Under the pieces are notes generated by a model that ran no database searches, was not told the origin of the DNA, and saw nothing but the letters and a program-made list of their open reading frames with translations. This document shows positions 7,821 through 63,550 of a stretch of DNA of 64,000 nucleotides, piece after piece. The stretch is from IMG/VR virus record IMGVR_UViG_3300009503_000030, positions 6,542-70,541 of that record. The stretch is one strand, 5' to 3'. The translations under genes were made by a program, and so were the position numbers. Position 1 is the first letter of the stretch, and each line of letters starts with the position of its first letter. Source of the stretch: a virus.

Positions 7821-8332
7821 AGGTCGGCGGAGTGTACTACGCCGAGGTGTCGCGGCGCACGGCACGTGTCCAGATCGTGCGTGTATCGCCCTACGGGGGA
7901 TGGGACGCGCGGAACCTGGACACAGGCCGCATGGTCTACTTCCACACGGGACGGCGCATCCACCGTCCCGTCGAGGGGAGGTGCCAGATGTTGAAATACG
8001 TCGTTGAACGCGGCTCCGGCGGTGTCGGGGCCTACGTCGAGGACGGTGCGCGGCGGCTGCCGCTCGACCCGCGCCTAGACTTGGCAGACCACTCGCCGAC
8101 CGGATACGGGTACGGATACGGCGGGTCGGGTCCGGCGCAACTGGCGCTCGCGATCCTCGCGGACGCCCTGCGGCGGGCCTACGGTTCGCGTCGGCGGAGG
8201 GCCGCGGACAAGGCAGCCTTGGACCTGTACCTGTGGTTCAAATGGGACGTAATCGCGGTGCAGACCGCGCTGCGATGGGAGATCACGCACGAGGACGTGA
8301 TGCAGTGGGTGATCTCGCACAGTTGCGACTGA
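7802..8332 (+). CDS. DUF6166-like protein (possible second start at 7988)
   Basis: HSPTGYGYGYGGSGPAQLALAIL; RBS before both 7802 and 7988. Confidence 0.7.
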   Translation: MRKKDVKVGGVYYAEVSRRTARVQIVRVSPYGGWDARNLDTGRMVYFHTGRRIHRPVEGRCQMLKYVVERGSGGVGAYVEDGARRLPLDPRLDLADHSPTGYGYGYGGSGPAQLALAILADALRRAYGSRRRRAADKAALDLYLWFKWDVIAVQTALRWEITHEDVMQWVISHSCD

Positions 8333-8376
8333 CAAGGCGATCCGCGCCGCGAAGCGCGGACCAAAGGAGGATTGCG

Positions 8377-10233
8377 ATGGCAACCAGGAACTGCCGGTAC
8401 GGACTCTTGGCTCCCGTTGAGGGGCGGGACGAGGTGATGCGCCAACTGCGGGTCGCGCACGAGGTCTACAATACGCTCGTCCAGTACGAGCGGGAGCGGC
8501 GGAAGGCGGTGGCCGATGCGACCCGCGAGACCGACGCGGAGGTCGCGCGGCTGGAGGCGGAGGTCGAGGGGCTGCTGTCCCGACTGGCGGACCTGCGTGC
8601 TGCGATCCAGGCGGCACGGGCCGGCGGTGGGGACAACGCGCGTCTCGCGGAGGCCCAGGCGGAGGCGCGCGAGTGCCGGCGGCTGCTTGGAGAGGCGAAG
8701 GGCGCGCTCCGAGAAACCAAGCGGGTCGCGCGGCAGAACCCCGCGCTGCGGGAGCGACTCGAGGCCATCAAGGCCGAACACCATCGGCGTCAACTCGCGC
8801 TCTACCATGAGGTCGTAGAGGTGGGCAAACGGCTGTACTGGCCCTCGTGGAACGACACGAAGGCCGCCGTCGAGCAGGCGGCGAAGAAGACGAAGAACGG
8901 CGACCTGCGGTTCCGGCGGTGGACCGGCGAGGGGAGCCTGTACACCCAGGTCCAAGGGAAGCAACCGGTCTGCGAGACGGCGACCTCGCGCTGGGTCCGG
9001 ATCGACCCAGTGCCGCCCGAGGCGCATGATCCCGCGACGCCGCGCGGAGAGCGCCGGCGTCTGTGCCGGACCCGCTTCTATCTGCGCATCGGGAGCACGG
9101 GTCCACGGGAGGACCCTGTGTTCGCGGTGTTTCCGATGGTCTATCACAGGCCGCTGCCGGAGGGCGCCGTGATCTGCGGGGCGCGGATCGTCCGGCGCAA
9201 GAACGCGGACCGCGAGTACTGGCAGGCCGTGGTGACGGTGGACCTGCCGGATGAGGCCGCGCAGAAGAGCGGGCCGCGCGTCTGTGCGCTCGACATTGGA
9301 TGGCGGGACCGGAGGCCCGGGGGCTCCGACGAGCCGCCGCCGCTGCGAGTCGCGGCCTGGTACGACGGGGACCGGACGGGCGAGGTGCTCGTGGACCCGT
9401 CGGTCTTCGAGCGATGTGCGAAGGCGGACGCGATCCGGAGCACGCGGGACCGGATGCTCGATGACCTGCGGGCGTGGCTCTGCGAGGCGCGCAAGGACCT
9501 TCCCGAGCACTTGGCGGAGGCGCTCGCGGGCTGTGGTCTGTGGCGGGCCGCGGGGAAGTTCGCGCGGCTGCGCGGGCTTCTGAGTTCCGGCGATGTGCCG
9601 GCGGAAGTGCGAGACCGGTTCCTCGCGTGGTATCACCGCGACCGGCACCTTTGGCAATACGAGCACGGCATGAGGTTGAACGCGATCCGCGACCGCGACA
9701 ACGCCTATCGGATCGCGGCGAAGCGGTTCGCCCAGGAGTACGACGTGCTGATCGTCGAGGCGACGGGCACGCCGCAGAAGGAGCGGGACCCGAAGGCGCC
9801 GGCGGCGATGGACCTGCGGCCCTTGATCAAGGAGCCGGACCCCGAGGACGCGCCGCCGCGAGACCAGCAGCGCGAAAGGAAAGAGAACAAGGCGCACCAC
9901 CAGCGGTTCATCGCGGCGGCAGGGACGTTCAGGCGCTACCTGTTGGAAGCCGCGGCCAAGTACGGGACGCGCGTGGTGATGGTTCCGTGCGAGCAGACGA
10001 CGTTGGAGTGCTGGGTCTGCGGGGCGAAGTACGAGTTCGACCGGTGGCCGCTGATGCACGAGTGCGAGTCCTGCGGTACGACCTGGGACCAAGACCAGAA
10101 CGCCGCGCGGAACCTGTTTGCGAGGGGCGCTGTGGCGGCGAAAGGGCCAGGGCCGCTCGAAGTGCAAGGAAAACCGCGACTTCCGCGATGGCATAAGCGC
10201 CACAAAGCGTACCGCGAGGGCGGGGCGGGGTGA
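8377..10233 (+). CDS. cas12m: Type V CRISPR effector, Cas12m (V-M/V-U1)-like, 618 aa
   Basis: YGLLAP, QLRVAH, coiled-coil REC region, LYWPSWN, LRFRRWTGEG, HRPLP, RuvC ALDIGWR / LIVE / DQDQNAARN, Zn finger CWVC...CESC; directly upstream of the array. Confidence 0.88.
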   Translation: MATRNCRYGLLAPVEGRDEVMRQLRVAHEVYNTLVQYERERRKAVADATRETDAEVARLEAEVEGLLSRLADLRAAIQAARAGGGDNARLAEAQAEARECRRLLGEAKGALRETKRVARQNPALRERLEAIKAEHHRRQLALYHEVVEVGKRLYWPSWNDTKAAVEQAAKKTKNGDLRFRRWTGEGSLYTQVQGKQPVCETATSRWVRIDPVPPEAHDPATPRGERRRLCRTRFYLRIGSTGPREDPVFAVFPMVYHRPLPEGAVICGARIVRRKNADREYWQAVVTVDLPDEAAQKSGPRVCALDIGWRDRRPGGSDEPPPLRVAAWYDGDRTGEVLVDPSVFERCAKADAIRSTRDRMLDDLRAWLCEARKDLPEHLAEALAGCGLWRAAGKFARLRGLLSSGDVPAEVRDRFLAWYHRDRHLWQYEHGMRLNAIRDRDNAYRIAAKRFAQEYDVLIVEATGTPQKERDPKAPAAMDLRPLIKEPDPEDAPPRDQQRERKENKAHHQRFIAAAGTFRRYLLEAAAKYGTRVVMVPCEQTTLECWVCGAKYEFDRWPLMHECESCGTTWDQDQNAARNLFARGAVAAKGPGPLEVQGKPRLPRWHKRHKAYREGGAG

Positions 10234-10289: not shown

Positions 10290-11027
10290 GTGGAAAGGGT
10301 ATCTCTGGACCTTACAATCAGAGACAAAAAGCGCAAGTGAAACGCGCCCTCGACCGGCTGCGGGTGGAAAGGGTATCTCTGGACCTTACAATCAGAGACT
10401 CCGGCGACCGCCAGGATCGGGTACGGGTGCGGGCCGAGTGGAAAGGGTATCTCTGGACCTTACAATCAGAGACTCGAGTGCACCCGACGGCCCCGGACCC
10501 GGTACACCCGCGTGGAAAGGGTATCTCTGGACCTTACAATCAGAGACCTCGCGGTCGGACGGCTACACCCCTGGCTACACCCCGTGGAAAGGGTATCTCT
10601 GGACCTTACAATCAGAGACCCGGACTGGCTCTCCGACGCGCTCTGTGCGCTCGCGAGTGGAAAGGGTATCTCTGGACCTTACAATCAGAGACCGGCGCGA
10701 GCCGCACAACGGACACCCCGCCCCCCGTCGCAAGGGTATCTCGACACCTTCGAAGTCGAGACCGAGTGCCCCGGACCCCGTGCACGTGCGGCAAAGGTAT
10801 CTCGACACCTTGGGAGTCGAGACACGCACCGGCACCGGCGCCGCGTCCGGACGCGAGAGTGGCAAAGGTATCTCGGCACCTTTGAAGTCGAGACGGGGTA
10901 GGTCGCGCCGCACACGCCGCACCGCAGCCGCATGGAAAGGGCATCTCGACGCCTTTGAAGACGAGACATGGTGGCGGCGCATCCAGCCTAGGTTGAAAGG
11001 GCATCTCGACGCCTGTGAGGTCGAGAC
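10290..11027 (+). CRISPR. CRISPR array, 11 repeats of 36 bp and 10 spacers of 24-38 bp
   Basis: Six identical GTGGAAAGGGTATCTCTGGACCTTACAATCAGAGAC at 10290, 10364, 10438, 10512, 10584, 10657, then five variant repeats at 10727, 10788, 10859, 10932, 10992. Confidence 0.98.
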
Positions 11028-13923: not shown

Positions 13924-15869
13924 CAGTACACCTCTGCGACTTCATCAAAATCGCTGAGCGCTGGCAACCCGATCTGCCGCGCCAGGTCCCAGGTGAGGCG
14001 CGTCGGGAACGGGTCTGTGGATTCATCACGAGTTTCAATGGGGCCGGCGGGGGTGAATGCCGTTCGGTTCTTCAAGAGGTTTCCCGCGAGCCAGAACAGG
14101 GACACGTAGAAGCGCGTGAGGCGGCCCTTGTTTGCGAGACGCCGTTTCCTCTGAATCCAGTCGGTGAACATCGGGTCTCGGATTCGGATGAGGTCCTGGG
14201 CGTAGGCGGTGGCTGCTTGATGGTCGGTCAGAGCGATCTCGTAGTTGTGGGTGACGAGTTTGTTGCCGTACTGCGATGGGTCTGTGATCTGCGACTCGTA
14301 GGCGACGTAAGCCTCTGGATTCGTGTGGGTCACGGGGTCGTAGAGGGTGACGTACACGATGTCGTCCCGCACGTAGACCGTGGACATGTTGGAGCGGCCC
14401 CAGATGGCGACCACGTAGGGTCCGGTGAAGGACTGCGTGTCGAGGGTGGCGGTGTCGGCCTCCAGGAGCGCTGGGCGGAGTTGGGTAGCAACGCGCCAGG
14501 CGATGAGCATGGCGCTCACGAGGTCGGGGAGGTGCTTCTCGCGGGTCGTGGCGATGAGCGCCTCGATGAGGTGGGAGAGACCGCTTGCGTCTCGCGCGAA
14601 GAAGAGCCGACCGGCGTTCATCTGGTGCGCCGCGATCTCGAGGTCCCCCCCGACGCGATACACGGAGGCGCCGGTGTGGATGGGGATCACGGCTGTACCT
14701 GGCAGGACATCGGAGAGGAAGGAGGCCACCATATCCTGGACGGCGTTGTTCTCGACGCCGATGACGAGCCTGGGGAAGCGCTCGGAGAGCGCCTTGAGGC
14801 GTCCGACGAGTCCGCCGGCGGTCCAGTGTCCGGAGGCGACGGACAGGACGAAGCAGCGGAGGTCGGAGATGCCGAGCACGCAGATCGCGGACTCGGTGGG
14901 GCCGTTGGGCGCCGCGAGGTCCACGCCGGCGATCACCATGTCCTCGCCAAGCGGGGTCCAGATGCGGGCGTTGTACGCCTGACCGCGAGACCTGGCGAGG
15001 GCGATGGACTCGTCGGTGAAGACGCGGGTATCCTCTTCTGGGGGGAGGGTCAGGAGGTACTGGCGCGCCCATTCTTGCGGCGTGGTCTTCGACTGGCGCT
15101 CGGCTACGCGCTCAGGGGTCCAGTGGGAGGGCCAGAGGGGCGTGCCGCTGTCATCCACAACAGGGAAGGTGCGGGCGACGTATCCGAGGTCGCGGACGAG
15201 GCGGTGCAGCACGTCATCCTTGTGCCACTTGACGCCGACGGCGATCACCCGCCCGACCTCGGAGAGGCGGGTGAGGTACGAGGCGTTGACGAACTCCCAG
15301 ATTTTGTCTCGCTGGTACGCGGTGGCGGTGTTCTGAGGGGACAGGATGTCGTCGAGAATGAGAAGGTCCACGCGCGCTCCAAGAATCTGGCCGTTGATGC
15401 CGATGGCCTGGTACGATGGGTCCTTTGAGACGATGGGCCGTGTAATCGTGAACACGCCGTCGGACCACGGGTGCGCGGGCCGCACGTTCGGGAAGACGCG
15501 GTGGTAGATTTTGTTCCTCTCGACGGTTTCCTTGATGAACCGCCCGAACTTGATGGCCTGGCGTTCGGTGGCCGAGACCACAACGATCCGGAGGTTCGGG
15601 TTGCGAGACAGGACCCATAGAGGGATGAGCTGGGAGCAGTGGACGCTCTTTCCATGCTCCGGTGCGGCCCAGATCACGCTGTATTTCTGCGTGGAGAGGA
15701 GGCGCAACCATTCGTATTGGAAGGGGGCCACCTCGAGCATCCGACCGCGCTCGTCGCGGAAGCAGGTGGACACCCAGATCGGGTAGGACCGGCGGGCGGC
15801 GGGCAGGATGCGCGATTCGAACACGTCTGGGGCGACGTGTGGGCGGAGTGGGGCCTTGAGGTGGTGCAT
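13923..15869 (-). CDS. terL: Terminase large subunit with C-terminal extension
   Basis: APEHGKS Walker A, GARVDLLILDD Walker B, WHKDD, AGVDLA nuclease motif, VENN. Confidence 0.92.
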   Translation of the reverse strand: MHHLKAPLRPHVAPDVFESRILPAARRSYPIWVSTCFRDERGRMLEVAPFQYEWLRLLSTQKYSVIWAAPEHGKSVHCSQLIPLWVLSRNPNLRIVVVSATERQAIKFGRFIKETVERNKIYHRVFPNVRPAHPWSDGVFTITRPIVSKDPSYQAIGINGQILGARVDLLILDDILSPQNTATAYQRDKIWEFVNASYLTRLSEVGRVIAVGVKWHKDDVLHRLVRDLGYVARTFPVVDDSGTPLWPSHWTPERVAERQSKTTPQEWARQYLLTLPPEEDTRVFTDESIALARSRGQAYNARIWTPLGEDMVIAGVDLAAPNGPTESAICVLGISDLRCFVLSVASGHWTAGGLVGRLKALSERFPRLVIGVENNAVQDMVASFLSDVLPGTAVIPIHTGASVYRVGGDLEIAAHQMNAGRLFFARDASGLSHLIEALIATTREKHLPDLVSAMLIAWRVATQLRPALLEADTATLDTQSFTGPYVVAIWGRSNMSTVYVRDDIVYVTLYDPVTHTNPEAYVAYESQITDPSQYGNKLVTHNYEIALTDHQAATAYAQDLIRIRDPMFTDWIQRKRRLANKGRLTRFYVSLFWLAGNLLKNRTAFTPAGPIETRDESTDPFPTRLTWDLARQIGLPALSDFDEVAEVY

Positions 15870-42530: not shown

Positions 42531-44387
42531 TCATTCCGTCCTCGGGCGTATAGTGCCCTCCCGCACGCTCTCAAGGCGTCTTGCGAGACGGGCCAGCTCC
42601 CCAAAGCCAGCCCGCACATCGTCCGCCGCGAACTCCCGCATGATCGCGATCACCATGGCCATCGTAGCGCTCAACTGCTCCGTGTAGGTACGCACCTGGT
42701 CCCAGGCAACGGCGGTCTGCTGCATGGATTCCACCAGTGCCCGACGCTCCATTGCCGCTGGTGCGGCTTCTGGGAGCACGCGCGCAACGAGACTCGTGAA
42801 TGCTTCTTGTAGCGCTACACCGACATCCCGTGGTTCTGTGGGTGGTGGGGCCACGCGCTCTGGCACCTCTGGTGCCGCCGCCCAGCGCCGTCCAAGCGAT
42901 GGGGCCACCTGCAAGGCCCCGGCGTAGAAGAATGGAGCGAGAGGCCCTACCCTCCGCCCCGCGCGACGGATGATCTCGTTGACCGCCCGTGGGTCCTCTG
43001 CGAGCGCGGCCATCTGCTCAAGGTTCCCGCCTGCCTCTGTCGCCAGTTCGCCCATGAGCATCGCCTGAATCGTATCCTGGGGCATGACCATGCCCGTCAC
43101 GCGCTGTAGAAGGCCCATTTGTGCCTGCTGGATCGCGCCTGGCAGGCCCATCGCCGCCCGCCCCTGGATTCCGCCTGCCGCCGCCTGTTGCAGGACGTTC
43201 GTCACGAAGTACGGCGAGACACTCATCCCCATCTGGGCCGCACGCTCCGTGATCCGCACCTGCTCCTGGAGCATCCGGGGCATTTCGCTCGATGCGAGTC
43301 CCGCCGCGGTCCCCGCGCGCACGGCCTCTTGCAAGATCAGGGTCGGAGCGCTGCGCAGGTCCAGCCCCGTCGTTTCGTATCCGTACCCTGGCCGGAAACC
43401 GCGCGTGAAGGCCCCAAGTTCTCCGGCATTGATTCCCCAGACCCGCTCAAAATACCCAAGCGCCTGGACTGGCACCGGCAATCCACCTTGCGCCGCGGCC
43501 TGGGCCTGTCGTTGCAACACGTCCTGGTAGGTCAAGTAGAATGGTGCGCCGCCACCAATGATCTCAGGCTCGGTCCCAGGGAGGTTGTAGCGATACCCAC
43601 CGCGCGCCGCGACAAGCATCGGCTCGACGGTCCCGTATCGGGCCGTGATCGCCTGTTCGTAGCGCTCGACCGCCGACCGGCGCACTTGCGCCTCTTCTTC
43701 GGCGAGCGCGCTGAACCGCTGCGTCAGGAGATTCGTGACGACCGATGTTATGATGCTGGCCGCCGCAAGCGCTCCGGCGACCGGCAGGGCGCCTGATGCC
43801 GCCGCGACGCCGGCGCCGGTCATCAGCCCAGCGGACGCCACGCCTCCGGCCCCAGCGCCCATCTGAATGTATGCCTGGCGCTCCACGAGTCGGGCCTGGA
43901 TCAGTCCGATGGTGAGCCCCGCGGGGGTCCCAGCCATGAGCCCGCCGGCCTCGACGGGGATGGCGGCGAACATCCCGCGCCCCCAGGCCTCCGCTGTCTG
44001 CTCGATCAGCCGGTTGATCACGTAGCCCGCGGCGTAGGCTACACCTTGATCCAGCCGCCGAACGCCAACCCCCCCCAAGAAGCGTTCGAGCGCAGAGCGC
44101 TGCCTCTCAGGTGCCGTGGCTCCCTCCGCTACGCCCGTGGGTTCCGTGGGCGTCGTCAGAGTGGGGGTCGGGGCCGGCGTCGGCGCCGGCGCAGGGGGCG
44201 GCGTGACGGTCGGCGCTGTCGTCGGCGCCGGTGTCGGCGCCGGTGTCGGCGCCGGCGTCGGTGGTTGCACTGGCGTGACGTTGATCCGATTGATGCGCGT
44301 CTCGATGTCTCGCAGAAGGTCGAGGATTCGCTGAAGATTCCGTGGGTCGGCCTCGACGGCGACCGTTGTCTGAAAGTCAGCGGGCAT
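42531..44387 (-). CDS. Tape-measure-like protein
   Basis: Ala/Gly-rich helical protein between the chaperone and hub genes; PTPA repeat; GGGAGG RBS. Confidence 0.65.
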   Translation of the reverse strand: MPADFQTTVAVEADPRNLQRILDLLRDIETRINRINVTPVQPPTPAPTPAPTPAPTTAPTVTPPPAPAPTPAPTPTLTTPTEPTGVAEGATAPERQRSALERFLGGVGVRRLDQGVAYAAGYVINRLIEQTAEAWGRGMFAAIPVEAGGLMAGTPAGLTIGLIQARLVERQAYIQMGAGAGGVASAGLMTGAGVAAASGALPVAGALAAASIITSVVTNLLTQRFSALAEEEAQVRRSAVERYEQAITARYGTVEPMLVAARGGYRYNLPGTEPEIIGGGAPFYLTYQDVLQRQAQAAAQGGLPVPVQALGYFERVWGINAGELGAFTRGFRPGYGYETTGLDLRSAPTLILQEAVRAGTAAGLASSEMPRMLQEQVRITERAAQMGMSVSPYFVTNVLQQAAAGGIQGRAAMGLPGAIQQAQMGLLQRVTGMVMPQDTIQAMLMGELATEAGGNLEQMAALAEDPRAVNEIIRRAGRRVGPLAPFFYAGALQVAPSLGRRWAAAPEVPERVAPPPTEPRDVGVALQEAFTSLVARVLPEAAPAAMERRALVESMQQTAVAWDQVRTYTEQLSATMAMVIAIMREFAADDVRAGFGELARLARRLESVREGTIRPRTE

Positions 44388-45028
44388 CCGGCCCTCCCGT
44401 ATCGCGCCTTTCAAGGTGTCGCGATACCCTTTCCACCAGACCATACCTTTCGCGGAACTCCCGCTCAAGTCGGGCGATCTCGGGGTCCGTGATCGCCTCC
44501 AACGGGGGCACGATCTCCTCCGCCGGCGGAGGCTCCGATGCGTATCGTTCCGCGAGCCTGTAGAGCATCAGGAGGCCGATGGGGACCCGTGGCGCCTGGT
44601 CAACGGGGATTCTGCACGGGCTGAACCACCACGATCTGGCGACTCTCTTCGCCGCCTTGTCTATACCGGCGAAAAAAGTCGGCTTCGAACCGCGCCACCT
44701 CCTCCGATACCGCGACGAAGATTTCGGGTCCGAGCTGGTCAAGCGGACGCTTGAACCAGTCTGGCGACTCCTCCACGAGCACTGCGCATCGGGCCATCGC
44801 CAGGAGCAGCGTCTGGATGTCTGCGGGCAACGATTGCCACGCGGCCCCCCGCGCCAGTCCAGAGAGGGCCACCGCCAGTTGCCGCACGTCTTCTGCTGTC
44901 GGTAGCCGCGCGACGAACGTCCCTTCGAGGTCCTCTCCCTTCGGAGACCGGTAGCGGACGGCGAACCGATGCTTTCCATCTGGGATGGCCTCCGCGGTCT
45001 CGCGAACGATGTCCTGGATGGAGGGCAT
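44377..45028 (-). CDS. Tail assembly chaperone (44600-45028) with probable frameshifted extension to 44377
   Basis: Lies between tube and tape measure; slippery TTTTTTC at 44677-44671 with an overlapping +1 ORF. Confidence 0.65.
44401..44436 (-). repeat. Solitary CRISPR repeat 13 nt before the tape-measure start
   Basis: GTGGAAAGGGTATCGCGACACCTTGAAAGGCGCGAT; compensatory GTATCGCG/CGCGATAC stem. Confidence 0.88.
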
Positions 45029-45036
45029 TGGTCACC

Positions 45037-45468
45037 TCACTGTTCCCACCGATGCCGGATGCGGGTGGCCTGGATCGCGACGTTCTGCATGACGAAGGAC
45101 CGCGCCTGCACCTGCATCGTGTAGTTGACAAGCACCGCGTCCTCGATCACAAAGATCGGTTTGTCATCGTGCGGATTCGCCGCATAGACCGCGATCTGGA
45201 ACGGAGGGAAGTTCACGAACTCCGCTGGATGTTCCCCGTCCATCGGGGGGAGAATCTCCTTGAGATCGTCCTCCAGGAGGCGGACGAAGCCGACGCGGCC
45301 ATCAATGATATAGCCCACCTTCAGCAAGGCGGCAGGCTCAGGCCGCCCGATCACCTCGACAGGCAGCACGCGAGACTGGATGGTGCCTTGAAAGTCGGTC
45401 CCCCAACCGACCTTCTTGCCAGCCACGTGAATCTCCACGCGCGCACCATGCAGGACTGTCTCTGGCAT
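45037..45468 (-). CDS. Tail tube protein
   Basis: 143 aa directly after the sheath; HGA.V.I...G..VG, V..IG. Confidence 0.78.
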   Translation of the reverse strand: MPETVLHGARVEIHVAGKKVGWGTDFQGTIQSRVLPVEVIGRPEPAALLKVGYIIDGRVGFVRLLEDDLKEILPPMDGEHPAEFVNFPPFQIAVYAANPHDDKPIFVIEDAVLVNYTMQVQARSFVMQNVAIQATRIRHRWEQ

Positions 45469-45479
45469 GGTTCACCTCC

Positions 45480-47843
45480 TCACGCAGCCATGCGTACGAC
45501 GTGCAGGGTTGTCGTGATCCAGTAGAGGGTTTCCAAGACGGCCACCTTGTACCCGACGTTCATCGCGTTTCCCAGGTCCTCGACCTCGATGGACCTTGGG
45601 TCGAACGCCTTGATCTCGTTGTCCCGCACCTGGCGGGCGAGCTCTTCGCGGACCCGCAGCCGGACCTGCGACGGCAGGATACCCGTCACCTGCTTCCCGA
45701 TGAATGCCTCAAGCGCGCGGCGCATGGACTCGTTCGACCGGTTCACCGACTCGTTCGCGGTGACCGATGAGAACACGGGGTTGTTGTCCACGGCATACGT
45801 GGTCACATCGCGAGACCACCGGAAGCCCGTCGGGCGCTTCTCGATCACGAAGATGCCGGTGGCGATCAGGTCTTCGAGATCGTCCACAACCGCCCACCTG
45901 TCGGCCCCTGAGAGGCTGGCACCGTCCCGCGCATCCACGATGGACACGTAGCGCCAGGTGACACCCTCCCCAGGCGCGCGCCCCGCATCGCACGCCGCCG
46001 CCAGGAGCGCCGTGTAATAGGGGGGCAGTTCCAAGACCTCCCCGTTCTCGTCGAACACGCTGATCGCCTGAGCGAGGAGCGCCACGTTCCGCGAGTTGAG
46101 GAGGGCGCGGCGCTCGGCCAGTTCCCCCCGCGTCGGGACCGACCCGAAACCGAGGTAGGCGTTGCGCGCCACGCCGCCATAGGCCCCGCTCATATAGTCC
46201 ACGTGATCGCGAGTCGCCGCGTGGACTGCCGCCGACCCAGTCAGAGGAACCACGTGCTGAATCTCGAGGTCTGGTGCTTTCAGCAAGTCGAGTGCCGCCG
46301 TCCAGTCGGAGGCCGCCGCAGGGATATTGTCGCTGCCCCCCAGCAGGTACTGGGCCACGGCCATCGGCGCGGGCAGGTCCTTCGCTCCATCCGCGCGCGT
46401 CGCCGTGATATACGTGGAAAGGGCGTTGTTCACGCCGTCCACGAGCGCCTTCAGATTGGCGGTCAGCCCGATCCCATCCGACGAAATCTGCACGGTCTCG
46501 GTCCCCAGGCTTCCGGTCTTGACGATGCTCGTGACCGAGGCCCACGCGATGCTCCCTGCCCCATAGAGCGAGCCTGCCTTGATCGTCACGGTCTCGCTGG
46601 CGGCCTCGTTCGTATCGCGGGCCGTCCCGCTGATCGCGAACGATACGTCGTTCCCAAGAGCCCCAGAAAGCAGGAACGCAAGGCGTCCGGCCCACGCGAA
46701 GGGTGCGGCAACCGGCCCATTGGCCCCCCAGCCCGCCTCGCCCACCGACATCCGCGTGCGGAGCTCCCGTCCAGACACGTGCGGCCAGCTGTCCGGATCG
46801 TAGACCCCCTCCTGGTCCAGGTCGGATACCGGCGCCGTCGAGGTTCCAAGGAGAAGGGCATGATACGAGTCGCCCGCCCCTGTGTAGCGCCCGACGAGGT
46901 GTTGCAGTTCGCTCGTCGTCGTATCCGCCAGGTGCGAGAGGGCCGAAATCCGCAGTTGGGTCGCCGTGGCCCCGAAGTTCCCACTGATCGTGATCGCATC
47001 CACATGTGACCACTGCTTTGTCGTGACCCCGCGCGTGCTGGCACCAGAGATCGTGACGGTCTCCGTATCGGCCTTGCCCGTCTCGCGGTTGACCCCCTGG
47101 ACCTGGATGGACACGGTGTTCCCAGCCCCAGGTGGAGCCAGCGTCCCTGCGTTGTCCGTCGTCTCGAAGACGATGGCCGAGGTGAAGGCTACGCCCGATG
47201 GGAGCCACGCCTTCGACGGCCCTGTGGGTTTGGGGGTGCGTAGCCGCCACTCGATGGCGAACATCGCGCCGTCCAGCGCCACCTGGCAAGACTCGTACAC
47301 GTCATCCTCAGGGATGTCTCCGTCGTATCCAAGACGGACCTTCTGCTGGTTGTACCCAAGGTTGTCCACGGCGGCGCTTTCCGACCGGTAGGCGACGGTG
47401 ACCTTCCGGCCCGCGCCGGCATACCGCGAGGATGCGAGCACCTGGACCTTGATCTCGTTCCCGAAGGCGCCGGCGTCCGCCGCCTTCAGGATGATGCTGT
47501 CCTGATCGCCATCATCCTGCACGGTGAGCGCGGCGTAATCGGCCTTGTTGACACGGACCAGGATCAGGCGGTTGGCACCATTCGGTATCCGTGGGTCCGA
47601 GGACGGGCGAAAGGCCAGTTGACCGATGATCGCCGCGTCCCGCGCCGTGAGAAGACGCCGCAGCGCAGATGCAGAGCGCACGATGATCGGGGTCTGTGGC
47701 GGCCCGCCCCGCACGAACTCCCCAAGCACCGCAATCGTCCCTGTGATGGCCGGACCGAGCCCCGCAAGCGCCTCGGCATCCACCAATGGGAAGACGCCTG
47801 GGCGGAACGTTGTCTGTCCTTGCACGCGAATGGAATCAGGCAT
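45480..47843 (-). CDS. Contractile tail sheath protein
   Basis: RPGV, G....GG.P, GA.GN.I.V, L.GG.D, W..AL..L, VTTY, FIG. Confidence 0.9.
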   Translation of the reverse strand: MPDSIRVQGQTTFRPGVFPLVDAEALAGLGPAITGTIAVLGEFVRGGPPQTPIIVRSASALRRLLTARDAAIIGQLAFRPSSDPRIPNGANRLILVRVNKADYAALTVQDDGDQDSIILKAADAGAFGNEIKVQVLASSRYAGAGRKVTVAYRSESAAVDNLGYNQQKVRLGYDGDIPEDDVYESCQVALDGAMFAIEWRLRTPKPTGPSKAWLPSGVAFTSAIVFETTDNAGTLAPPGAGNTVSIQVQGVNRETGKADTETVTISGASTRGVTTKQWSHVDAITISGNFGATATQLRISALSHLADTTTSELQHLVGRYTGAGDSYHALLLGTSTAPVSDLDQEGVYDPDSWPHVSGRELRTRMSVGEAGWGANGPVAAPFAWAGRLAFLLSGALGNDVSFAISGTARDTNEAASETVTIKAGSLYGAGSIAWASVTSIVKTGSLGTETVQISSDGIGLTANLKALVDGVNNALSTYITATRADGAKDLPAPMAVAQYLLGGSDNIPAAASDWTAALDLLKAPDLEIQHVVPLTGSAAVHAATRDHVDYMSGAYGGVARNAYLGFGSVPTRGELAERRALLNSRNVALLAQAISVFDENGEVLELPPYYTALLAAACDAGRAPGEGVTWRYVSIVDARDGASLSGADRWAVVDDLEDLIATGIFVIEKRPTGFRWSRDVTTYAVDNNPVFSSVTANESVNRSNESMRRALEAFIGKQVTGILPSQVRLRVREELARQVRDNEIKAFDPRSIEVEDLGNAMNVGYKVAVLETLYWITTTLHVVRMAA

Positions 47844-49347
47844 GTCCACCCTCCTCCGCTTCTTCGGTTATCCTACCTGGACCGGCGGCAGTGCGCAATG
47901 GGGCACCAGCGCCGTGTTCCAGACCACCAGCGAGACCACCCAGACCACCCAGACCACCGAGGCCCTGTGGTTGCCCGCCACCAAACAGGCTCGCCGCGTC
48001 AATGAACCCCATTCCAACGCCCAGCTGGATGATCTGGAGCAGGGATGGGTTGGCCGGCAGTTTCCCAAGCCCGCTTGGCAATGGCTGCAACCCGTGCTCC
48101 GCGCGTATCTCGTCCACCGTCATGTAGGCTCGGACCCGCTTGTCGTCAAAATCAGCGCGGTCCCGCTCCGCGAAATCCGCAAGCCCCTGAAACCGAATCA
48201 CGAAGTCAGGATTCAACTGGTTGACGATGTAATGGTTGAGCCACGATTCAAGGTCTCGCAGCAGTGGCCGCAGGCCCTTGTCCCGCCCGATCTGCACCCG
48301 CGTCTCAGGGCTCGATTGAAACACAGCACCCCGCTGGCCCTCCGCCCCAAACTGAAACCCGATCTCCGCAGGATCAATCAGATAGATGCCGCACAAAACC
48401 TTCATCAACCAGTTCATCCACTCGCGGTACTCCATGTCGGAGTTGGCGCGCCCGAGGGAGAGCCACTGGATGTTCGACTTCTCGGTCTTCGGATTCAGAA
48501 TCGGGATACGATGGGCGCTCCCAACGCCCGTGGCGACCGCCTGGAGTTCGCGGCGGAACGCCTGTAGTTGCTCCGGCAGCATCCCGCCTGGCACCACGAG
48601 GATACCCTTCGTGTTCATGCCCTGCCGGAAGTAGTTGGCGTTGTACTGGTAGCCCCAGAGGAACGCCGTCAAGATGTCCACGACCTCGATCAGCTCAGGG
48701 TAGCCGTATCCCATAGACTGGAGGTCGGTACGAGGACGCCGGATTCCGAAGAGCATCTCCTCCGGCGCGAACTCCGCAACGATCTCGTACTCCTCAAGCA
48801 CCTGCACGTAGCCGGATGCATCCTCGTTGATTCGGATGGTTGCCGCATCCACAGGAAGGACACACAACGGTTTGCCGAGTCTGGTGTGGACAATCTGCGC
48901 GCACGCCTGATCGTAGCGCAGAGAGTCTCGCATGAGCGCCCGACAGAGGTACTCGAACGACAGCCTCTGTCGGTAGACGCGGTGCTCCTTGTGCTTGTCG
49001 GCCCATGACCATTCGCCACAGGTCAGCAGCCACCCCTGAATCCGCTCCGCCTCCTTCTCGTCTGCGCGTGTTGGGGACTTCCCATCGCGCCGCACGACCT
49101 TGAAGCCGGTTTCGCGGGGATCGCGGGGTATCCGCGCGAACTCCGCGATCTGGGCGATCCGCGTTTGCAAGATGACGGCGATGATGTGCTTGCGGGACAG
49201 GTCGCGCAACAACGAGTACGAGACGAGGTTCGCGAAGTGCGGGGGCTCGCGCCACTGGGACGCCTGATACCGCGCGTACCACGGATCGTCGAGTGCAGCG
49301 AGTATCACCTCACCAGGGTCGAACGTCTCGCGGTCGCGGGAGGCCAC
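47836..49347 (-). CDS. Portal protein
   Basis: RDSL.YDQ, PVDAATIR, YGYPE, YF.QG...KGIL, DME..., IDP.EIG, TVDE.R. Confidence 0.92.
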   Translation of the reverse strand: MASRDRETFDPGEVILAALDDPWYARYQASQWREPPHFANLVSYSLLRDLSRKHIIAVILQTRIAQIAEFARIPRDPRETGFKVVRRDGKSPTRADEKEAERIQGWLLTCGEWSWADKHKEHRVYRQRLSFEYLCRALMRDSLRYDQACAQIVHTRLGKPLCVLPVDAATIRINEDASGYVQVLEEYEIVAEFAPEEMLFGIRRPRTDLQSMGYGYPELIEVVDILTAFLWGYQYNANYFRQGMNTKGILVVPGGMLPEQLQAFRRELQAVATGVGSAHRIPILNPKTEKSNIQWLSLGRANSDMEYREWMNWLMKVLCGIYLIDPAEIGFQFGAEGQRGAVFQSSPETRVQIGRDKGLRPLLRDLESWLNHYIVNQLNPDFVIRFQGLADFAERDRADFDDKRVRAYMTVDEIRAEHGLQPLPSGLGKLPANPSLLQIIQLGVGMGFIDAASLFGGGQPQGLGGLGGLGGLAGGLEHGAGAPLRTAAGPGRITEEAEEGGHA

Positions 49348-52433: not shown

Positions 52434-52469
52434 ACCTCCTTGTCAAAGGTGTCAAAACACCCTTTCCAC
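52434..52469 (-). repeat. Degenerate solitary CRISPR repeat overlapping the MTase stop and the next RBS
   Basis: GTGGAAAGGGTGTTTTGACACCTTTGACAAGGAGGT; 24 of the first 27 nt match the repeat consensus and the 3' arm is replaced by the RBS. Confidence 0.65.
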
Positions 52470-56134: not shown

Positions 56135-56591
56135 ACGGGCGGGTGCGTGGAACACGGTGCGCGGCCTCGAGTGGGCGGCGCTCGTCGTGGCGGCGCTGCT
56201 CGGGGTCGGAGAGGCGATCCTGGGACACGGGGCCGGACTCGTTCCTCCGGCGGTGATCGCGGCAGTAGCCGTCGCGGTCAAGGCGCTGCGCGCGGTGCTC
56301 GCGGTGACCGCCGACGTGCGGTCCTCGACGGTGTCCCCGGCGTCCTGGGCTGTCGCCGTGGTCCTCGCGCTCGTCGGGAGTCTCGCGGGCGAGGTGGCTG
56401 GACAGAAGCAGGAGGTGGTCCATGAAATCACCGTCATCGTGGGTCCGGATGTTGCTGGCGGTGCCGTTCGTGATGCTCTTGACGCCGCTGGTGATCCTGG
56501 TCCAGTGGATCATCTGGGCGGCGGGGACCCTGTAGAAAGATATCTCGACACCTTGGAAGGCGAGACATGCTCCGGCGGGTCCGGAGATTGA
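56118..56591 (+). CDS. Membrane protein (about 3 TM, holin candidate)
   Basis: Three hydrophobic segments; GGAGGT RBS. Confidence 0.6.
   Translation: MGRTFERAGAWNTVRGLEWAALVVAALLGVGEAILGHGAGLVPPAVIAAVAVAVKALRAVLAVTADVRSSTVSPASWAVAVVLALVGSLAGEVAGQKQEVVHEITVIVGPDVAGGAVRDALDAAGDPGPVDHLGGGDPVERYLDTLEGETCSGGSGD
56531..56566 (+). repeat. Solitary CRISPR repeat (variant type)
   Basis: TGTAGAAAGATATCTCGACACCTTGGAAGGCGAGAC. Confidence 0.8.
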
Positions 56592-56639
56592 CATTGGCGG
56601 GGGCCAATGGCGCGAGACACGGGGTGGCAACCGTGACCG

Positions 56640-56675
56640 CGCATGAGGGTATCTCTGGACCTTCAGACCAGAGAC
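56640..56675 (+). repeat. Solitary CRISPR repeat (major type) 23 nt before the lipoprotein start
   Basis: CGCATGAGGGTATCTCTGGACCTTCAGACCAGAGAC; TCTCTGG/CCAGAGA stem. Confidence 0.87.
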
Positions 56676-63335: not shown

Positions 63336-63516
63336 CTCCACAACGGGTCGGGTGCCGGCTTGGCCAGCCGCCAACCTGATCCAGGGAGCAGAGGCTCCCT
63401 CGTGGCAGGTAGGCCCCCCACCGAGGCGCAAGCCTCGACCCCCACAGCCTGCCACCTGGGCGCCAAAGGCCCGGCCCGCCACTCTCATGTGGGGGTCTGC
63501 GGCCATGCCGCGCCTC

Positions 63517-63550
63517 GTGGAAAGGGCATCTCGACCTTCGCGGTCGAGAC
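63517..63550 (+). repeat. Solitary CRISPR repeat (34 bp) directly before the RBS of the replication gene
   Basis: GTGGAAAGGGCATCTCGACCTTCGCGGTCGAGAC then GAAGAAAGGAGAAAGCC-ATG. Confidence 0.9.

What the first reader, a model, noticed from the sequence alone, without database searches (positions are those of the whole stretch)
44385..44436. Solo repeat immediately ahead of the tape-measure RBS, with compensatory stem changes
Seen: the repeat ends 13 nt before ATG 44387 (ACGGGAGGGCCGG-ATG). Its stem has changed on both arms, from TCTCG/CGAGA to TCGCG/CGCGA, giving GTATCGCG/CGCGATAC. It is also read as VERVSRHLERRD at the end of the chaperone extension frame. Inference: paired changes imply selection on RNA structure, at a site suited to tuning a low-copy tail protein.
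Basis: partly seen in the sequence, partly recalled or inferred. Interest (0 to 1): 0.72.

Follow-up and report, generated by a model that had tools for sequence, protein, structure and literature searches.

The report
Solo Cas12m repeat before tape-measure gene
A hot-spring phage that carries its own DNA-binding CRISPR protein (Cas12m) has one extra copy of that protein's RNA handle just ahead of the start signal of its tail tape-measure gene; the copy is real and well folded, but nothing yet shows that it controls the gene.

Summary
Window 44401-44436 (- strand) is a true solitary copy of the phage's own type V-M (Cas12m) CRISPR repeat: a model built only from the array repeats scores it 37.2 bits, E about 4e-9. 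It ends 13 nt before ATG 44387, and GGGAGGG lies in between. It is read as VERVSRHLERRD in the +1 extension frame of the tail chaperone. Its stem pair 15-33 is G-C where 12 of 15 copies have U-A.

The inference is only partly supported. It rests on one paired change. Both changes are synonymous third-codon AT>GC changes. Two other solos carry the same 5' change without compensation. The only tail-module relative found (L002, sheath 52% identical) lacks the element, which shows up as a roughly 45-nt in-frame indel. The last base is U, whereas C(-1) is kept in 18 of 20 copies here and in 51 of 52 repeats of six other viral Cas12m arrays.

No RNA data exist. My best reading (0.4) is a cis-acting Cas12m handle on the late tail mRNA that places the tape-measure RBS and AUG in guide position.

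This scan noted solo Cas12m repeats at RBSs before in another genome, a 176-kb phage (note e1-5942987). I saw the same in a third phage, G002.

The parts
44401..44436 (-). Solitary 36-nt copy of the phage's Cas12m CRISPR repeat (GTGGAAAGGGTATCGCGACACCTTGAAAGGCGCGAT)
   Evidence: Array-only model R2: 37.2 bits, E about 4e-9. It keeps 15 of the 18 positions that are invariant in the array repeats.
44399..44427 (-). Extended hairpin GTATCGCG / CGCGATAC: 8 contiguous pairs, 3 of them beyond the canonical helix
   Evidence: unique exact match.: -13.6 kcal/mol at 37 C, the most stable of 15 copies, and second most stable at 65 C.
44392..44398 (-). Shine-Dalgarno GGGAGGG of the tape-measure gene, 5 nt before the ATG, at guide positions +3 to +9
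   Evidence: Sequence.
42531..44387 (-). Putative tape-measure protein gene (618 aa), ATG at 44387
   Evidence: It follows sheath, tube and chaperone. It is 31% identical over 637 aa to the syntenic L002 gene, starting at this ATG. Atlas nearest named clusters are PF10145 tape-measure at score 0.90, which is a lead only. There is no Pfam or PHROG hit.
44600..45028 (-). Tail assembly chaperone ORF1 (142 aa)
   Evidence: Position between tube and tape measure. It is 48% identical to the L002 counterpart. Atlas leads point to tail-assembly-chaperone families at 0.88-0.90.
44377..44677 (-). Extension frame of the chaperone (+1, equivalent to -2), entered at the T6 run TTTTTTC (44677-44671). The repeat supplies its last codons.
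   Evidence: GC3 is 0.83-0.86 in this frame. The same GCC/GAC TTT TTT CGC site and the same +1 frame are present in L002. The extension proteins are 40% identical from the FF onward.
8233..10233 (+). Cognate effector gene, a Cas12m family member
   Evidence: PDB 23vw Cas12m E = 1.7e-56 and Cas12m2 8hhl E = 2.6e-20. Pfam Cas12f1-like TNB domain.
10290..11027 (+). CRISPR array: 11 repeats, 6 identical and 5 variant

Best explanation
The element is a solitary, sense-strand copy of the phage's own type V-M CRISPR repeat. Relative to the nearest tail-module relative it is an in-frame indel of about 45 nt at the very end of the tail-chaperone frameshift extension. As a result, the polycistronic late tail mRNA carries a Cas12m crRNA scaffold whose guide positions are the Shine-Dalgarno sequence and AUG of the tape-measure gene.

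Most likely mechanism: the phage's Cas12m binds this scaffold in cis. It may also cut just 5' of it, as Cas12m2 does with pre-crRNA. By holding the next 17 nt or so, it would occlude the ribosome-binding site and separate the tape-measure message from the abundant sheath/tube/chaperone message, lowering or timing tape-measure synthesis.

Shown: homology, fold, position, strand, the indel, and conservation of the scaffold-reading residues in the effector. Inferred: binding, cutting and any effect on translation.
For: - Repeat homology is independent of the copy itself.
- Both helices of the Cas12m2-type scaffold are present, and the family shows covariation: 90.2% of cells are paired against 83.7 +/- 1.3 in shuffles (0 of 500 reach it) and at most 45.4% when partners are slid. 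The architecture is taken from PMC10442227, section 7.
- A/T is kept at conserved third-codon positions (A6, A12, A18, T24), although the frame just upstream has GC3 of 0.83-0.86.
- The copy is sense to the tail operon, and no promoter-like site lies in 43900-45600, so it is transcribed inside the late mRNA.
- Its 'guide' has no other target in the 70.5-kb genome; the best other matches have 4 or more mismatches in 20. Any action is therefore in cis.
- Family pattern: 3 of 9 solos lie within 30 nt upstream of an SD plus start, against a 5.7% baseline, P = 0.012. A fourth, 63517, visibly does so as well.
- An orthologous solo is kept in the mosaic relative G001.
- An unrelated Cas12m phage, G002, also has dispersed repeat copies, some directly before SD/ATG.
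- The copy is identical in a second hot-spring run, X2.
Against: - The base at -1 is U, not C. C(-1) is kept in 18 of 20 copies here and in 51 of 52 repeats of six other viral Cas12m arrays. It is read base-specifically in Cas12m2 by His269/Arg270, and that motif is conserved here.
- The three extra pairs and an inner CCU/AGG pairing would have to open for the pseudoknot fold to form.
- The element is absent from the only tail-module relative.
- G003, a 210-kb Cas12m phage, shows no dispersed copies, so solos are not a general property of Cas12m phages.
- No paper among those I searched reports Cas12m acting on mRNA.
- No RNA run holds this phage, so transcription ends and processing are unknown.
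Confidence: 0.4

Rival explanations
1. Cas12m-independent RNA hairpin. The repeat-derived stem-loop has been kept and strengthened as an ordinary intercistronic structure. It would protect the upstream sheath/tube/chaperone message from 3' exonucleases, or insulate the strong tape-measure SD from upstream pairing.
For: - It is the most stable hairpin of 15 copies at 37 C.
- Every change at an array-invariant position either keeps or lengthens the stem: G15-C33, and U36 pairing with A12.
- Loss of C(-1) is harmless under this reading.
- The SD stays unpaired in the predicted fold.
Against: - The single-stranded GGAAAGGG and loop CCUU motifs, which a plain hairpin does not need, are kept unchanged.
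- The fold z-score of the 66-nt region is only -0.97.
- L002 manages without any hairpin.
- The idea of intercistronic stabiliser hairpins (REP-like) is recalled, not tested here.
Confidence: 0.25
2. Neutral footprint. The repeat arrived by illegitimate or homologous recombination with the array or another solo, and it is tolerated because it only adds about 15 residues to the C-terminus of a minor frameshift product. The 'compensatory' pair is then GC3 drift plus chance.
For: - T15G and A33C are synonymous AT>GC third-position changes. The same T15G is uncompensated in two solos.
- The element is absent in L002.
- Solos are gained and lost between relatives: at the site matching 63517, G001 homology stops exactly at the repeat's 5' edge and G001 has no repeat there.
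- C(-1) is lost.
Against: - Of the A/T third positions that could drift, the two that pair changed together. By my hand estimate this has a chance of about 0.05.
- C36T goes against GC bias yet adds a pair.
- Solos as a family are enriched just upstream of starts, and one is orthologously conserved in G001.
Confidence: 0.2
3. Trans-acting small RNA. The solo is processed into a crRNA-like RNA that acts as a decoy for a host or rival Cas12m (Racr-like), or as a guide against a host or rival-phage target (crlRNA/Cracr-like).
For: - Solitary repeat units in viruses are known to act as RNA anti-CRISPRs (PMC10651486, passages read).
- Viral crlRNAs are reported to reprogram Cas proteins (bioRxiv 10.1101/2024.10.29.618823, abstract read).
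Against: - No promoter-like site lies upstream, and the copy sits in a coding frame. By contrast, that paper reports SRUs as often just downstream of a promoter and limits its search to intergenic regions.
- The phage owns the cognate cas12m.
- No bacterial or archaeal species genome shows an array of this repeat: 8 single, chance-level hits.
- There is no partial target in the phage itself or in the relatives fetched by then, L002-L007.
Confidence: 0.08

Closest known systems
Type V-M CRISPR repeat / Cas12m2 crRNA scaffold (PMC10442227; sections and passages read)
   Same: - A 36-nt repeat-derived scaffold.
- A helix that closes at A(-2), coaxial with a second short helix (here AAGG:CCUU).
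- A conserved unpaired A before the helix.
- A cognate Cas12m gene with the HR motif next to an array.
   Different: - It is solitary and lies inside a structural operon and a coding frame.
- U replaces C(-1).
- The helix is lengthened by three pairs.
- What follows is the mRNA's own RBS and AUG, not a spacer.
Viral solitary repeat units acting as RNA anti-CRISPRs (Racr; PMC10651486, passages read)
   Same: A single CRISPR-repeat copy in a viral genome that keeps the repeat's sequence and fold.
   Different: - In that paper SRUs are described as often just downstream of a promoter and not linked to cas genes; its search was limited to intergenic regions, and most SRUs match the host's system.
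- This copy is intragenic, lacks a nearby promoter-like site and is cognate to the phage's own Cas12m.
crRNA-like regulatory RNAs (crlRNA; viral Cracr, bioRxiv 10.1101/2024.10.29.618823, abstract read; Shmakov et al. 2023, listing only)
   Same: A repeat-like element outside the array used for regulation rather than immunity.
   Different: Those elements act in trans on DNA promoters through partial guide matches. Here no trans target exists in the genome, and the proposed action is in cis on RNA.
Phage-encoded Cas12m of myxophage MV-1 (bioRxiv 10.64898/2026.09.14.751636, passages read)
   Same: A phage with cas12m plus an adjacent array and no adaptation genes reported.
   Different: That paper does not mention solitary repeats (0 occurrences of 'solitary').
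Tail assembly chaperone frameshift pair (lambda gpG/gpGT type; recalled, no paper read)
   Same: Two overlapping frames between the tube and tape-measure genes, a conserved slippery run, and an extension that ends on the tape-measure start.
   Different: The shift needed is +1 (or -2) at TTTTTTC, not the usual -1. The last 15 or so codons come from a CRISPR repeat.

Membership tests
Type V-M (Cas12m) CRISPR repeat | Sequence homology to the repeats of an array next to a cas12m gene | tested here: met
   Array-only model R2 gives 37.2 bits, E about 4e-9. The effector is Cas12m.
Type V-M (Cas12m) CRISPR repeat | Scaffold fold: a 7-bp helix closing at A(-2) plus a second helix to the loop | tested here: met
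   6 of 7 pairs and 4 of 4 pairs are present in this copy. Family-wide pairing is 90.2%, with covariation at 4 pairs.
Type V-M (Cas12m) CRISPR repeat | C at position -1, read by the conserved His-Arg motif | tested here: not met
   The base is U here. C is present in 18 of 20 window copies and 51 of 52 repeats in six other viral arrays. The HR motif is conserved.
Type V-M (Cas12m) CRISPR repeat | Member of a repeat-spacer array | tested here: not met
   It is solitary; the nearest other copy is 8 kb away.
Type V-M (Cas12m) CRISPR repeat | Bound and processed by Cas12m | not testable with these tools
   No RNA holder was listed, and there is no RNA-protein docking tool.
Viral solitary repeat unit / Racr | Single repeat-like copy in a viral genome, away from arrays | tested here: met
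Viral solitary repeat unit / Racr | Intergenic, with its own promoter just upstream | tested here: not met
   It lies in the chaperone extension frame. There are 0 promoter-like sites in 43900-45600.
Viral solitary repeat unit / Racr | Mimics the host's CRISPR repeat; no cognate cas gene in the virus | tested here: not met
   The phage encodes the cognate cas12m. No host array was found in the species genomes, only 8 single hits; this half is inconclusive.
crlRNA / Cracr | Spacer-like part partly complementary to a promoter target with a PAM | tested here: not met
   The best non-self matches of the 20-nt guide have 4-5 mismatches scattered along it. The host genome is unknown.
Tail chaperone programmed frameshift | Overlapping frames between tube and tape measure, with a conserved slippery site | tested here: met
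   TTTTTTCGC and the +1 frame are conserved in L002. The extension is 40% identical.

The most novel reading that the evidence does not exclude
Cas12m in this phage doubles as a sequence-specific mRNA-binding regulator. CRISPR scaffolds written into the phage's own operons, some of them in frame inside genes, would act as RNA operators. One protein made by the phage could then cut and/or mask the ribosome-binding sites of several genes. The tape-measure copy would be a deliberately weakened, U(-1), extra-stable variant that sets a lower occupancy.
Probability: 0.25. Interest if true: 0.85.

Novelty: new variant of a known kind. Interest (0 to 1): 0.45.

Why it matters
Solitary CRISPR repeats in viruses are so far known as decoys or trans-acting guides aimed at host systems. 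A repeat that is cognate to the phage's own non-cutting Cas12m, and that places a structural gene's RBS and AUG in guide position, would be a different use. In that case a CRISPR effector would work as a post-transcriptional regulator of viral genes. It would also show that CRISPR repeats can be carried in frame inside protein-coding sequence. This single copy cannot establish that, but it is a clean and easily tested case: one hairpin, one RBS and one effector.

Tried and rejected
- **Close relatives of the junction.** The chaperone protein has no homologue besides itself among 128 candidates. IMG/VR scans with the chaperone and the sheath confirmed none. Alignment-based scans gave one tail-module relative, the same IMG/VR contig as L002 and L008, plus distant ones. 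The metagenome scan gave only relatives at 25-32% identity. blastn against phage records found no match.
- **A second sheath relative.** A sheath at 51% identity (P0003) sits on a 58.8-kb Logan contig that I could not fetch.
- **Sequencing runs.** No RNA holder was listed. Run X3 (microbial mat, fragments about 95% identical) has no contig over 44390-44470. This is a hole in a low-depth assembly, not evidence.
- **Exact-pattern scans for the repeat.** There were 0 stretches in IMG/VR. In the species genomes there were 8 single hits in unrelated taxa, at about the level I expected by chance.
- **Trans targets.** Neither the solo 'guides' nor the array spacers have targets in the phage, in L002-L007 or in G001.
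- **Rfam.** Only sub-threshold chance matches appeared.
- **Intrinsic terminator reading.** No T-run follows the hairpin and the scan does not list it.
- **A repeat before the tape-measure gene in G002.** PF10145 found no tape-measure gene there, so this was not pursued.
- **The 52434 copy.** I treat it as doubtful: 15.8 bits with the array-only model, and L002 has a loosely similar T-rich stretch at the same place.
- **Supplementary files.** The supplements of the papers were not opened. The Racr paper's SRU tables might list this record.
Full report
**What the window is.** The window is bases 6542-70541 of a complete 70,541-bp virus record with direct terminal repeats. It has 65% G+C, and its holders are hot-spring metagenome runs. 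On the + strand, 8233-10233 encodes a Cas12m family protein: PDB 23vw 'Cas12m' E = 1.7e-56, Cas12m2 8hhl E = 2.6e-20, plus a Pfam Cas12f1-like TNB domain. Directly downstream lies a CRISPR array of 11 repeats at 10290-11027, six identical and five variant.

On the - strand the late module runs in this order:
- portal, 47836-49347;
- tail sheath, 45480-47849;
- a 143-aa gene, 45037-45468;
- a 142-aa chaperone-like ORF, 44600-45028;
- a 618-aa gene starting at ATG 44387.

These assignments rest, with Atlas leads for tape measure and tail chaperone.

**The observation.**
- the 36-nt copy at 44401-44436 (-);
- the 13 nt ACGGGAGGGCCGG before ATG 44387;
- the perfect inverted repeat GTATCGCG/CGCGATAC at 44399-44427;
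- the reading ...GLVERVSRHLERRDTGGPDAR* in the frame that stops at 44379-44377.

To avoid circularity I built a covariance model from the six distinct array repeats alone and searched the whole window with filters off. The copy scores 37.2 bits, E about 4e-9 (rough calibration). Seven other solos score 20.5-40.6 bits, a doubtful one at 52437 scores 15.8, and the other listed matches score 14.2 or less. A model built from all copies finds 20 copies at 34.9 bits or more. The next best hit in the window is 15.6 bits, and the best in relative L002 is 14.3 bits.

**The frame it sits in.** The 142-aa ORF stops at 44600. A second frame, +1 relative to it, has GC3 of 0.83-0.86 from about 44650 to 44440. 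It is reached at GAC TTT TTT CGC (T-run 44677-44672).

L002 is an IMG/VR contig whose sheath is 52% identical. It is syntenic from window 54220 to about 37600. It has the same TTT TTT CGC run, the same +1 frame and the same overlap of the extension stop with the tape-measure ATG. The two extension proteins are 40% identical from the FF onward. So 'chaperone extension frame' is right, with the detail that the shift is +1 (or -2), not -1.

**Is the hairpin conserved?** It is not conserved in the one relative that can be compared. In L002 the extension ends ...REEAGLLDA*. In the window it ends ...RERYGLVERVSRHLERRDTGGPDAR*. At the DNA level, the 48 nt of repeat plus ACGGGAGGGCCG stand where L002 has TTA. 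That is a net in-frame difference of about 45 nt, which also brings a much stronger SD. Which state is ancestral cannot be told from two genomes. A second hot-spring run (X2) is identical over 44204-45100.

**How strong is the 'compensatory' argument?** On 15 distinct copies, the two helices I wrote down from the Cas12m2 description (PMC10442227, section 7) hold in 90.2% of cells. Shuffles give 83.7 +/- 1.3 (0 of 500 reach the observed value) and slid partners give at most 45.4%. Four pairs change on both sides. The family fold is therefore real, as expected for a CRISPR repeat.

For this copy the evidence is a single pair. Pair 15-33 is G-C here, U-A in 12 copies, and unpaired G/A in two copies, solos 12378 and 13629.

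In the extension frame the three departures from array-invariant positions are all synonymous third positions: TCT>TCG, CGA>CGC and GAC>GAT. This cuts both ways:
- AT>GC drift in a GC3-rich genome can produce the first two changes without any RNA selection.
- Yet of the eight A/T third positions available, three changed and two of them are partners. By my hand estimate that has a chance of about 0.05. A simpler estimate, three random hits in the 14 stem positions, gives about 0.08-0.1.
- C36>T goes against the GC bias and adds an A12-U36 pair, which is followed by two more pairs.

The predicted hairpin is the most stable of the 15 copies at 37 C (-13.6 kcal/mol) and the second most stable at 65 C. 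I read this as suggestive of selection for the stem, not as proof.

**The weak point for a Cas12m role.** In Cas12m2, C(-1) is read base-specifically by His269 and Arg270. The HR motif aligns to HR in this phage's protein and in 23vw, and it is invariant in 16 homologues.

C(-1) is kept in 18 of the 20 copies in the window. The exceptions are this copy and the doubtful 52434. Among 18 further viral Cas12m loci, my k-mer criterion found arrays in 11. I examined the 6 of those that gave a full-length consensus, and 51 of their 52 listed repeats end in AC.

This copy ends in AU. Read two bases further on, the stem does end ...GAUAC, so an A(-2)C(-1) end exists in a shifted register. Whether the protein could use that register is unknown.

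**Context in the family.**
- The 'guide' of this copy has no second target in the genome. No promoter-like site lies between the sheath gene and the tape-measure gene. Any action would therefore be in cis on the late mRNA.
- Three of nine solos lie within 30 nt upstream of an SD plus start of a GC3-rich ORF, against a baseline of 5.7% of positions (P = 0.012). Solo 63517 has AAGGAG and an ATG 17 nt downstream but failed the script's filter, so the count is conservative.
- G001 is an IMG/VR contig of 41.8 kb whose Cas12m is 93% identical. It is a mosaic relative without a detected sheath gene. It keeps one solo at the place of window 56531, between a small ORF and a lipoprotein gene. At the place of 63517 its homology stops exactly at the repeat's 5' edge and it has no repeat. 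Solos can therefore be conserved, and they also mark gain/loss or recombination points.
- G002 is a complete 152,857-bp phage with a Cas12m only about 30% identical and an unrelated repeat. It has 54 matches spread over the genome, including isolated copies followed by GAGGAG...ATG or directly by ATG.
- G003 (210 kb) has only its array.
- A note of this scan reports the same in a 176-kb Cas12m phage (e1-5942987; not checked by me).

**Literature.**
- Cas12m binds DNA and silences it without cutting (abstracts of PMC11013384 and PMC10442227 in the listing).
- Viral solitary repeats are described as promoter-driven anti-CRISPR RNAs; that paper's search was limited to intergenic regions (PMC10651486, passages).
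- Viral crlRNAs reprogram host Cas proteins (bioRxiv 10.1101/2024.10.29.618823, abstract).
- A phage Cas12m was reported in 2026 without any mention of solitary repeats (bioRxiv 10.64898/2026.09.14.751636, passages).
- My searches found no report of a CRISPR repeat used in cis on a phage's own mRNA. Subscription journals are not covered.

**Verdict.** The object is real and unusual: a CRISPR scaffold written in frame into the end of a tail-chaperone extension, right against the tape-measure RBS. The evidence does not carry the specific inference that paired changes prove selection at a site that tunes a low-copy protein. My ranking is:
- a cis-acting Cas12m handle, 0.4;
- a Cas12m-independent hairpin, 0.25;
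- a neutral footprint, 0.2;
- a trans-acting decoy or guide, 0.08.

Noticed in passing
window 44671-44692 (- strand); L002 11177-11185: The chaperone frameshift site is GAC TTT TTT CGC and leads into the +1 (or -2) frame, not the -1 frame. The T6C run and the frame are conserved in L002. In the window a small hairpin (CGGTTCGAAGCCG) precedes the T-run, and the scan lists it as terminator-like.
   Followed up: partly
window 9761-9780 (- strand, inside cas12m) versus the 20 nt after solo 13629: The 'guide' that follows solo 13629 matches the antisense strand of the cas12m gene in its first 14 nt (16 of 20 overall, 5' flank CCGCTC). By my own estimate, a 14-nt seed match among nine guides in 141 kb is expected well under 0.05 times. 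It could be a crlRNA-like autoregulatory target.
   Followed up: no
G001 (L037-L039), IMG/VR contig of 41,841 bp: A different phage backbone (no sheath gene found) carries a 93% identical Cas12m and the same repeat family. The array is split across the two contig ends, which suggests a circularly closed assembly broken in the array. It shares only about 7 kb of DNA with this phage.
   Followed up: partly
window 63341-63550 versus G001 2303-2500: Homology at 88% runs through the structured leader and stops exactly at the 5' edge of solo 63517. G001 has no repeat there and has a different downstream gene. The repeat therefore sits on a mosaic junction.
   Followed up: partly
window 56531-56675 versus G001 14046-14240: Between a small ORF and a lipoprotein gene (lipobox LACG) this phage has two solos. 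G001 has one, orthologous to the first. The flanks are 82-91% identical.
   Followed up: partly
G002 (via L027), 152,857-bp complete IMG/VR phage: An unrelated Cas12m phage has several arrays (about 37 kb, 39 kb, 59 kb and 106 kb) and isolated repeat copies. Some of these are followed at once by GAGGAG...ATG or by ATG.
   Followed up: partly
window 52434-52469 (- strand): A degenerate repeat-like stretch whose 3' half is the SD AAGGAGGT of the next gene. It scores only 15.8 bits with the array-only model, and L002 has a loosely similar T-rich stretch at the same place. It is a doubtful family member.
   Followed up: partly
window 44152-44276: A 12-nt tandem repeat (GCCGGCGCCGAC-like) lies near the 5' end of the tape-measure gene. 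It attracts many unrelated metagenome contigs when reads are laid.
   Followed up: no
window 10474-10511 and 10763-10787: Array spacers 3 and 7 resemble each other (shared CGAGTGC...CCCGGACCC). They may be two versions of one target. No protospacer was found in any sequence held.
   Followed up: no
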